A stretch of DNA of 64,000 nt, taken from the NCBI RefSeq assembly GCF_055900595.2, contig NZ_CM148325.1, one strand, 5' to 3'. The notes beneath the pieces were generated by a model that saw only the letters and a list, made by a program, of their open reading frames with translations, did not search any database and had not been told where the DNA came from. Positions 33,998-35,962 of the stretch are shown here, in pieces; the first letter of the stretch is position 1, and the number at the start of each line of letters is the position of its first letter. Made by a program: the position numbers and the translations under genes.

Positions 33998-35962
33998 GTG
34001 AGCATGGATATAAGCGATTTTTATCAGACATTTTTTGATGAAGCGGACGAACTGTTGGCTGACATGGAGCAGCATTTGCTGGTTTTGCAGCCGGAAGCGC
34101 CAGATGCCGAACAATTGAATGCCATCTTTCGGGCTGCCCACTCGATCAAAGGAGGGGCAGGAACTTTTGGCTTCAGCGTTTTGCAGGAAACCACGCATCT
34201 GATGGAAAACCTGCTCGATGAAGCCAGACGAGGTGAGATGCAACTCAACACCGACATTATCAATCTGTTTTTGGAAACGAAGGACATCATGCAAGAACAG
34301 CTCGACGCTTATAAACAGTCGCAAGAGCCGGATGCCGCCAGCTTCGATTATATCTGCCAGGCCTTGCGTCAACTGGCATTAGAAGCGAAAGGCGAAACGC
34401 CATCCGCAGTGACCCGATTAAGTGTGGTTGCCAAAAGTGAACCGCAAGATGAGCAGAGTCGCAGTCAGTCGCCGCGACGAATTATCCTTTCGCGCCTGAA
34501 GGCCGGGGAAGTCGACCTGCTGGAAGAAGAACTGGGACATCTGACAACGTTAACTGACGTGGTGAAAGGGGCGGATTCGCTCTCGGCAATATTACCGGGC
34601 GACATCGCCGAAGATGACATCACAGCGGTACTCTGTTTTGTGATTGAAGCCGATCAGATTACCTTTGAAACAGTAGAAGTCTCGCCAAAAATATCCACCC
34701 CACCAGTGCTTAAACTGGCAGCCGAACAAGCGCCAACCGGCCGCGTGGAGCGGGAAAAAACGACGCGCAGCAATGAATCCACCAGCATCCGTGTAGCGGT
34801 AGAAAAGGTTGATCAATTAATTAACCTCGTCGGCGAGCTGGTTATCACCCAGTCCATGCTTGCCCAGCGTTCCAGCGAACTGGACCCGGTTAATCATGGT
34901 GATTTGATAACCAGCATGGGGCAGTTACAACGTAACGCCCGTGATTTGCAGGAATCAGTGATGTCGATTCGCATGATGCCGATGGAATATGTTTTTAGTC
35001 GCTATCCCCGGCTGGTGCGTGATCTGGCGGGAAAACTCGGCAAGCAGGTAGAACTGACGCTGGTGGGCAGTTCTACTGAACTCGACAAAAGCCTGATAGA
35101 ACGCATTATCGACCCGCTGACCCACCTGGTACGCAATAGCCTCGATCACGGTATTGAACTGCCAGAAAAACGGCTCGCCGCAGGTAAAAACAGCGTCGGA
35201 AATTTAATTCTGTCTGCCGAACATCAGGGCGGCAACATTTGCATTGAAGTGACCGACGATGGGGCGGGGCTAAACCGTGAGCGAATTCTGGCAAAAGCGG
35301 CCTCGCAAGGTTTGACTGTCAGCGAAAACATGAGCGACGACGAAGTCGCGATGCTGATATTTGCACCTGGCTTCTCCACGGCAGAGCAGGTCACCGACGT
35401 CTCCGGGCGCGGCGTCGGCATGGACGTCGTTAAACGTAATATCCAGGAGATGGGCGGTCATGTCGAAATCCAGTCGAAGCAGGGTACTGGCACTACGATC
35501 CGCATTTTACTGCCGCTGACGCTGGCCATCCTCGACGGCATGTCCGTACGCGTTGCGGATGAAGTTTTCATTCTGCCGCTGAATGCTGTTATGGAATCAC
35601 TGCAACCCCGTGAAGCCGATCTCCATCCACTGGCCGGCGGCGAGCGGGTGCTGGAAGTGCGGGGTGAATATCTGCCCATCGTCGAACTGTGGAAAGTGTT
35701 CAACGTCGCGGGCGCGAAAACCGAAGCCACCCAGGGAATTGTGGTGATCTTACAAAGTGGCGGTCGCCGCTACGCCTTGCTGGTGGATCAATTAATTGGT
35801 CAACACCAGGTTGTGGTTAAAAACCTTGAAAGTAACTATCGCAAAGTCCCCGGCATTTCTGCTGCGACCATTCTTGGCGACGGCAGCGTGGCACTGATTG
35901 TTGATGTCTCCGCCTTGCAGGCGATAAACCGCGAACAACGTATGGCGAACACCGCCGCCTGA
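33998..35962 (+). CDS. cheA: Chemotaxis histidine kinase CheA (long form; internal start of CheA-short at 34289)
   Basis: Track ORF 33944..35962 trimmed to GTG 33998 ([15 protein letters not shown]...); matches K-12 CheA (654 aa). Confidence 0.95.

What the first reader, a model, noticed from the sequence alone, without database searches (positions are those of the whole stretch)
34289..35962. Internal in-frame start for the short CheA isoform
An in-frame ATG (34289, Met98 of the long form; context DIMQEQL) is preserved, as in K-12 where CheA-short lacks the phosphorylation site His48 and is co-expressed from the same gene.
Basis: established knowledge. Interest (0 to 1): 0.25.

Follow-up and report, generated by a model that had tools for sequence, protein, structure and literature searches.

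The report
Known internal start for short CheA
The ATG at 34289 is codon 98 of the E. coli chemotaxis kinase gene cheA, the long-known internal start that makes the short CheA protein, so the finding is correct but ordinary.

Summary
The window is E. coli flhDC-motAB-cheAW-tar. cheA runs 33998 (GTG) to 35962 and encodes 654 aa. ATG 34289-34291 is in-frame codon 98. His48 is present, and GAAGGA (34279-34284) sits 4 nt upstream of the ATG. From Met98 the 557-aa product loses the Hpt hit but keeps the P2, dimerisation, ATPase and CheW-like domains. The protein differs from K-12 only by K484E, and cheZ, the partner of CheA-short, is intact.

The interpretation matches the literature (Smith & Parkinson 1980; Kofoid & Parkinson 1991). 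M98I and M98L mutations abolish CheA-short.

New supporting evidence from 80 Enterobacterales cheA loci:
- ATG98 is invariant (82/82 sequences), whereas only 9 of 146 more distant CheA relatives have Met there and most have Leu.
- Codons 88-98 are the most synonymously constrained stretch of the gene (1 of 2000 permutations did as well). Codons 1-9 come next.

One nuance: most species have AAAGAT rather than E. coli's AAGGAC, so they lack a recognisable Shine-Dalgarno sequence, and what is conserved there is an A/U-rich, accessible stretch.

Verdict: already known, low interest. In passing, MotB carries a private G147V change at an invariant glycine.

The parts
33998..35962 (+). cheA, long form CheA-L (654 aa, GTG start)
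   Evidence: ORF and translation. NCBIfam equivalog 'chemotaxis protein CheA', 1344.8 bits. Pfam Hpt, CheY-binding, H-kinase_dim, HATPase_c and CheW. RefSeq annotates the same coordinates in a matching genome.
33987..33993 (+). Shine-Dalgarno-like GAGGTGA for the long-form start; it overlaps the motB stop codon
   Evidence: Sequence. Anti-SD pairing is -7.2 kcal/mol. PMC8745638, citing McNamara & Wolfe 1997, quotes 'gagguga' as the E. coli long-form RBS.
34139..34141 (+). His48 codon (CAC), the phosphorylation site, absent from the short form
   Evidence: Translation. His is invariant in 82/82 sequences.
34259..34300 (+). Codons 88-101, the most synonymously constrained stretch of cheA; inferred translation initiation region of start(S)
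   Evidence: The lowest 9-codon windows of normalised synonymous entropy lie here, 0.29 against a gene mean of 0.72. After adjusting for amino acid, the minimum falls at codons 90-98, matched in 1 of 2000 permutations. Alignment A1 has 93% mean column identity. Predicted accessibility is high.
34279..34284 (+). GAAGGA, the ribosome-binding site of start(S), 4 nt before the ATG
   Evidence: Sequence. Anti-SD pairing is -5.4 kcal/mol, in the top 12% of codon positions in the gene. PMC8745638, citing McNamara & Wolfe 1997, quotes 'gaagga' as the E. coli short-form RBS.
34289..34291 (+). ATG98, start(S), the initiation codon of CheA-short
   Evidence: In frame as codon 98. ATG in 82/82 Enterobacterales sequences. 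The literature reports that M98I and M98L abolish CheA-short.
34289..35962 (+). CheA-short reading frame (557 aa): remnant of P1, then P2 to P5
   Evidence: Pfam on the Met98 product finds the CheY-binding, H-kinase_dim, HATPase_c and CheW domains but no Hpt hit.
34289..34390 (+). Residues 98-131, the C-terminal remnant of the P1 domain, which the literature assigns to CheZ binding in the short form
   Evidence: PDB P1 chains cover residues 1-131 and 1-138. PMC3180615 states that the remaining P1 residues of CheA-short bind CheZ. This stretch is identical to K-12.
34265..34273 (+). CUGUUUUUG, 5' arm of a possible 9-bp hairpin that would hold the RBS and AUG98 in its loop (unproven)
   Evidence: MFE fold of the window and of two other species. 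95% of cells pair, but there are no compensatory changes and the result is no better than shuffles.
34292..34300 (+). CAAGAACAG, 3' arm of the same possible hairpin (unproven)
42285..42929 (+). cheZ (214 aa, intact), phosphatase partner recruited by CheA-short
   Evidence: ORF and translation. Annotated at the same coordinates in a matching genome. Its role is taken from PMC2644175, PMC7696710 and PMC3676780.

Best explanation
ATG 34289 is start(S) of E. coli cheA. Ribosomes start on the motA-motB-cheA-cheW mRNA either at the GTG at 33998, which makes the 654-aa kinase CheA-L, or internally at ATG98, which makes the 557-aa CheA-short. The internal start uses the GAAGGA site 4 nt upstream, set in an A/U-rich and poorly structured stretch. 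CheA-short lacks helices A to D of the P1 domain, including His48, so it cannot be phosphorylated on its own P1. It keeps the P2 to P5 domains, so it can dimerise, including with CheA-L, and join receptor arrays. Its exposed P1 remnant binds the phosphatase CheZ and brings it to the receptor cluster. Shown here: the anatomy, the domain loss, the clade-wide invariance of the ATG, and RNA-level purifying selection just upstream of it. Taken from the literature: actual initiation at codon 98, loss of the short form in M98 mutants, CheZ recruitment, and that CheA-short is not essential for chemotaxis. Inferred: that all this holds in this particular strain.
For: Anatomy:
- Coordinates, frame, His48 and GAAGGA are as described.
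- The Met98 product loses only the Hpt hit.
- cheA DNA differs from K-12 at one base, giving K484E.
- 5380 of 5426 complete E. coli genomes carry the gene.
- flhD, cheY and cheZ are intact in the window.

Literature:
- There are two start codons, and M98I does not express CheA-short (PMC2644175).
- The alternate product is initiated at codon ATG-98, M98L removes it, and CheZ then delocalises (PMC7696710).
- The first 97 residues are deleted and the remaining P1 residues bind CheZ (PMC3180615).
- The E. coli short-form RBS is 'gaagga' (PMC8745638).

Comparative evidence:
- ATG98 is present in 82/82 Enterobacterales sequences, down to 62% protein identity.
- Only 9 of 146 more distant P1 domains have Met there. 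Leu appears in 94, Val in 21 and Ile in 14. The fold therefore does not need Met.
- Codons 88-98 are the most synonymously constrained part of the gene, matched in 1 of 2000 permutations, and codons 1-9 rank next.
- Predicted accessibility of the start(S) region is at the 91st percentile in this mRNA. It is at or above the 75th percentile in 91% of 80 species.
Against: - No expression data exist for this strain.
- The GAAGGA pairing is only moderate (-5.4 kcal/mol). Seven other in-frame NTG codons in the gene score as well or better.
- In 72 of 80 species the site is AAAGAT, with pairing no stronger than at 39% of all codon positions. The conserved element is therefore not a classical SD.
- The main text of the Ribo-RET study of internal starts does not mention cheA, so I found no ribosome-profiling support.
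- Within-E. coli conservation of the site is not distinctive. The 81 nt are identical in 99.3% of genomes, against 98.9% for one control stretch and 66.8% for another.
- The primary papers (PMC207748, PMC178899, PMC176941) were not available. The experimental facts come from papers that cite them.
Confidence: 0.93

Rival explanations
1. ATG98 is only an internal methionine codon kept for protein reasons, such as packing in P1 helix D. It is not used as a start in this strain.
For: The whole peptide [14 protein letters not shown] is nearly invariant in Enterobacterales, so protein-level constraint is strong here. The SD is moderate in E. coli and absent in most species.
Against: More distant CheA P1 domains mostly have Leu, Val or Ile at this position, and Met in only 6%. 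Protein constraint cannot explain reduced synonymous variation in the preceding ten codons. The literature reports that M98I and M98L remove the short form while leaving CheA-L functional.
Confidence: 0.03
2. The synonymous constraint at codons 88-101 reflects a different RNA element rather than a ribosome-loading region. Candidates are a hairpin, an sRNA or RNase target, or a translational pause site. Its position next to ATG98 would then be partly coincidental.
For: A 9-bp stem, CUGUUUUUG pairing with CARGAACAG, can form around the RBS and AUG in E. coli, Citrobacter and Serratia, with 95% of cells paired. The conserved bases are not SD-like in most species.
Against: There is no compensatory change, the result is no better than shuffles, the folding z-score is only about -1.1, and the stem is lost in Xenorhabdus. 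The loop codons 95-97 are also constrained, which a stem does not explain. No Rfam family and no promoter-like site occur there. The only other comparably constrained place is the primary start.
Confidence: 0.1
3. The short protein arises by proteolysis of CheA-L, or from the nearby ATG81, which has an even stronger SD-like GAGGTGAG in E. coli.
For: ATG81 (34238) has anti-SD pairing of -7.2 kcal/mol, equal to the primary start.
Against: Codons 79-80, which form that SD, vary freely among species. Met81 is not invariant, at 78/82. Its predicted accessibility is about 600-fold lower than at codon 98. The literature reports that mutations at codon 98 alone eliminate the short form.
Confidence: 0.02

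Closest known systems
E. coli K-12 cheA start(S) / CheA-short (Smith & Parkinson 1980; Kofoid & Parkinson 1991; Sanatinia et al. 1995)
   Same: Same gene, same codon 98, same GAAGGA site, same 557-aa product and the same neighbouring cheZ. The 81 nt around the ATG are identical to the K-12 derivatives ER2683 and NEB Turbo, and to 5343 of 5378 E. coli genomes.
   Different: One amino-acid difference in the shared kinase part, K484E. The strain background is not K-12. It has 17 substitutions and one indel across flhD to tap, and a private motB variant.
CheA-L/CheA-S co-expression in other enteric bacteria (McNamara & Wolfe 1997; Salmonella per PMC3676780 and PMC3180615)
   Same: ATG98 and the preceding roughly 30 nt are conserved across 80 Enterobacterales species.
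   Different: Most species have AAA GAT ATT before the ATG instead of E. coli's AAG GAC ATC, so they lack the GAAGGA pairing. Salmonella itself was not among the loci sampled.
Other in-frame internal starts in E. coli genes: infB (IF2 isoforms), clpB, mrcB (Meydan et al. 2019, bioRxiv 10.1101/520783)
   Same: One gene and one mRNA with two in-frame starts, giving an N-terminally truncated isoform that can assemble with the full-length protein.
   Different: These are different proteins. The main text of that study does not mention cheA.
ArcB-C internal start (Meydan et al. 2019)
   Same: An internal in-frame start inside a histidine-kinase gene, with conservation of the start across species.
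   Different: ArcB-C is a small C-terminal HPt fragment. CheA-short does the opposite: it removes the HPt phosphorylation site and keeps the kinase core.

Membership tests
CheA histidine kinase (enteric type, NCBIfam NF007835) | Full-length match above the curated cut-off, with the five-domain P1-P5 architecture | tested here: met
   1344.8 bits against a cut-off of 793. Pfam finds Hpt, CheY-binding, H-kinase_dim, HATPase_c and CheW.
cheA start(S) / CheA-short | In-frame ATG at codon 98 of cheA, downstream of His48 | tested here: met
   ATG 34289-34291 is codon 98, and His48 is at 34139-34141.
cheA start(S) / CheA-short | Ribosome-binding sequence GAAGGA a few nucleotides upstream | tested here: met
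   GAAGGA at 34279-34284 with 4-nt spacing and -5.4 kcal/mol pairing. The motif is as quoted from McNamara & Wolfe in PMC8745638.
cheA start(S) / CheA-short | Product lacks the phosphorylation site and Hpt fold but keeps P2 to P5 | tested here: met
   The Pfam scan of the Met98 product loses Hpt only.
cheA start(S) / CheA-short | CheZ-binding P1 remnant and a cheZ gene both present | tested here: met
   Residues 98 to 483 are identical to K-12. cheZ is intact at 42285-42929.
cheA start(S) / CheA-short | Start codon and its upstream region conserved in enteric bacteria | tested here: met
   ATG in 82/82 sequences. Strongest synonymous constraint in the gene at codons 88-98. Met is rare in more distant relatives.
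cheA start(S) / CheA-short | Translation actually starts at codon 98, giving two CheA bands with the short one lost in M98 mutants | not testable with these tools
   Known for K-12 from the literature. No data exist for this strain.

The most novel reading that the evidence does not exclude
In most Enterobacterales the internal cheA start has no recognisable Shine-Dalgarno sequence (AAAGAU). Even so, the roughly 30 nt before it, AAC CUG UUU UUG GAA ACN AAA GAU AUU, are the most synonymously constrained part of the gene. Initiation there may therefore depend on an SD-independent element. This could be an A/U-rich unstructured landing site, or a hairpin that holds AUG98 in its loop. On this reading E. 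coli's GAAGGA is a derived reinforcement produced by three synonymous changes.
Probability: 0.3. Interest if true: 0.3.

Novelty: already known. Interest (0 to 1): 0.1.

Why it matters
It confirms that this strain keeps the genetic set-up for making two CheA proteins from one gene. The short form places the CheY phosphatase CheZ at the receptor cluster, which shapes the CheY-P distribution and the coordination of the motors. Nothing new follows for chemotaxis biology. The small added value is a clean comparative signature of a functional internal start, namely a clade-invariant ATG plus a gene-wide minimum of synonymous variation just upstream. This signature could serve as a positive control when screening other genes for internal starts. 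The analysis also shows that the classical SD at this site is specific to E. coli and a few other lineages.

Tried and rejected
- **Primary papers.** Kofoid & Parkinson 1991 (PMC207748), McNamara & Wolfe 1997 (PMC178899) and Sanatinia 1995 (PMC176941) are not held. I relied on papers that cite them.
- **Ribosome profiling.** The main text of the Ribo-RET preprint does not mention cheA, and a riboproteogenomics paper cites CheA-short only as a known example.
- **Within-species conservation.** This was uninformative. The start(S) stretch is identical in 99.3% of genomes, but a control stretch in the kinase domain is identical in 98.9%.
- **Hairpin around AUG98.** A stem is possible but has no covariation, is no better than shuffles and folds weakly, so the result is inconclusive.
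- **Other elements at the site.** No Rfam family and no promoter-like site were found.
- **ATG81 as an extra start.** Rejected, because its SD is not conserved and the site is predicted to be buried.
- **Identity of the strain.** Strain 720632 has matching cheA coordinates but is not the source. It is 99.2% identical over 36.5 kb and carries an island near the tRNA genes that the window lacks.

Full report
**What is there**

The window around the finding is the E. coli flhDC-motA-motB-cheA-cheW-tar region. A 2.1-kb query covering cheA matches 5380 of 5426 complete E. coli genomes at 95-100% identity. RefSeq annotates motB, cheA and cheW under the match.

- The cheA reading frame starts at GTG 33998, four bases after the motB stop, and ends with TGA at 35960-35962. 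It encodes 654 aa.
- The protein matches the NCBIfam CheA equivalog at 1344.8 bits, against a cut-off of 793.
- It has the five Pfam domains Hpt, CheY-binding, H-kinase_dim, HATPase_c and CheW.

**Check of the observation**

- ATG occupies 34289-34291. It lies 291 nt after the start, so it is in-frame codon 98, in the context [10 protein letters not shown].
- His48 is encoded at 34139-34141.
- GAAGGA lies at 34279-34284, 4 nt before the ATG. PMC8745638, citing McNamara & Wolfe 1997, gives this motif as the E. coli ribosome-binding site for short CheA.
- Translation from Met98 gives 557 aa. That product loses the Hpt hit and keeps the other four domains.
- Across flhD to tap the window differs from K-12 TOP10 by 17 substitutions and one indel. 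Only one of these falls in cheA (35447 G for A, K484E). The start(S) region and the P1 remnant are identical to K-12.
- flhD, cheY and cheZ are intact.

**What the literature says**

- PMC7696710 states that CheA-short is an alternate translation product initiated at codon ATG-98. It is not essential for chemotaxis, and M98L removes it and delocalises CheZ.
- PMC3180615 states that in E. coli and Salmonella the short form lacks the first 97 residues including His48, and that the remaining P1 residues bind CheZ.
- PMC3676780 summarises the enhanced phosphatase activity of the CheA-short/CheZ complex.

I could not read the primary papers.

**Independent evidence from comparison**

A scan of one genome per species returned 80 Enterobacterales cheA loci, from Citrobacter (about 84% protein identity) to Xenorhabdus (about 63%).

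- *Invariance of the ATG.* Codon 98 is ATG in all 82 sequences, counting the window and K-12.
- *Not required by the fold.* I compared 146 more distant CheA proteins, taken as representatives of 50%-identity clusters with an alignable P1 domain and His48. The aligned residue is Leu in 94, Val in 21, Ile in 14 and Met in only 9. The P1 fold needs a hydrophobic residue there, not methionine.
- *Synonymous constraint.* I measured synonymous codon entropy per conserved column. The eleven lowest 9-codon windows of 459 all fall within codons 83-101, with normalised entropy 0.29 against a gene mean of 0.72. The next lowest is codons 1-9, at the primary start.
- *After correction.* I corrected each column for the gene-wide mean of its amino acid and permuted columns within amino-acid classes. 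The minimum, at codons 90-98, was reached in 1 of 2000 permutations.
- *Accessibility.* The 25 nt around AUG98 are predicted to be among the more accessible parts of the mRNA. They rank at the 91st percentile in this sequence, at a median 87th percentile across 80 species, and at or above the 75th percentile in 91% of them.

Together these results are what a selected internal translation initiation region should look like.

**A nuance on mechanism**

The GAAGGA pairing is moderate, at -5.4 kcal/mol, which is in the top 12% of codon positions in the gene. It is also largely specific to E. coli. In 72 of 80 species the sequence is AAA GAT ATT ATG, and its anti-SD pairing (-3.3 kcal/mol) is matched or exceeded at 39% of all codon positions. 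What is conserved is AAC CTG TTT TTG GAA ACN AAA GAT ATT, where only the third base of codon 94 is free.

A 9-bp stem can enclose the RBS and AUG in an 18-nt loop. It would pair codons 90-92 (CUGUUUUUG) with codons 99-101 (CARGAACAG). It pairs in 95% of cells. However, it shows no compensatory change, is no better than shuffles, folds weakly (z about -1.1) and is lost in Xenorhabdus. I treat it as unproven.

No Rfam family and no promoter-like site lie at the position.

**Limits**

- Within E. coli the site is not distinctively conserved. The 81 nt are identical in 99.3% of genomes, against 98.9% and 66.8% for two control stretches.
- I found no ribosome-profiling evidence for cheA. The main text of the Ribo-RET study does not mention it.
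- Expression in this strain is inferred, not shown.

**Verdict**

The feature is the textbook start(S) of cheA, so it is already known and of low interest. The most novel reading not excluded is that initiation at this site is SD-independent in most Enterobacterales, with the E. coli SD a derived reinforcement.

**Side observations**

- motB carries T at 33506, changing GGT to GTT (Gly147Val).
- No complete E. coli genome among 5374 has this base. Every best hit to the surrounding 81 nt has one mismatch.
- Gly147 is invariant in all 80 loci compared.
- The residue lies between the plug (13-66) and the Pfam OmpA hit (160-258).
- This may be a motility-affecting private mutation or a sequencing error.

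Noticed in passing
window 33505-33507 (motB codon 147): GTT (Val) where K-12 has GGT (Gly). None of 5374 complete E. coli genomes has this base, since every best hit to the surrounding 81 nt has one mismatch. Gly147 is invariant in all 80 loci compared. This is a private missense change in the stator protein, in the same operon as cheA. It may affect motility or may be a sequencing error.
   Followed up: partly
window 35447 (cheA codon 484): GAG (Glu) where K-12 TOP10 has AAG (Lys). This is the only cheA difference from K-12. It is shared with strains 720632 and 2024CK-00535, which are 100% identical over 33900-36000.
   Followed up: partly
window 34238-34240 (cheA codon 81): A second in-frame ATG preceded by GAGGTGAG, with anti-SD pairing of -7.2 kcal/mol, as strong as the primary start. 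The SD codons vary freely among species, Met81 is not invariant (78/82), and the site is predicted to be buried. It is probably not used.
   Followed up: yes
window 33998-34006 (cheA codons 1-3): Codon 1 is GTG in 76 of 82 sequences but GTA in 6. In those species the ATG at codon 3 must be the long-form start. Gene callers also start some homologues at MD(I/V)S. The NCBIfam model aligns from residue 3.
   Followed up: partly
L083 3268-3288 (MAG GCA_035281745.1, closest relative outside the sampled set, 59% identity): This cheA, also in a motA-motB-cheA-cheW cluster, has Leu at the position of Met98. It has an ATG one codon earlier, directly after AAGGAC. This may be a shifted equivalent of start(S) or a coincidence.
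   Followed up: partly
window 36506-36583 (-), 50574-50881 (+), 54837-54879 (+), 17981-18280 (+): Rfam matches: C0465 RNA in the cheW-tar spacer on the opposite strand, MicL sRNA, ES036 sRNA and three tRNA genes.
   Followed up: no
window 18228-18352 compared with strain 720632 (L084 7617-18245): Strain 720632 has about 10 kb of IS elements, a group II intron remnant and TIR-domain genes between the tRNA cluster and yecA. The window lacks this island. That strain also has frameshifted flhD, araG and yecE, whereas flhD is intact in the window.
   Followed up: partly
window 31043 (upstream of flhD): A one-base deletion relative to K-12 TOP10, about 80 nt before the flhD start codon. Five substitutions lie in the flhD upstream region (30963-31073), which controls the whole regulon including cheA.
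   Followed up: no
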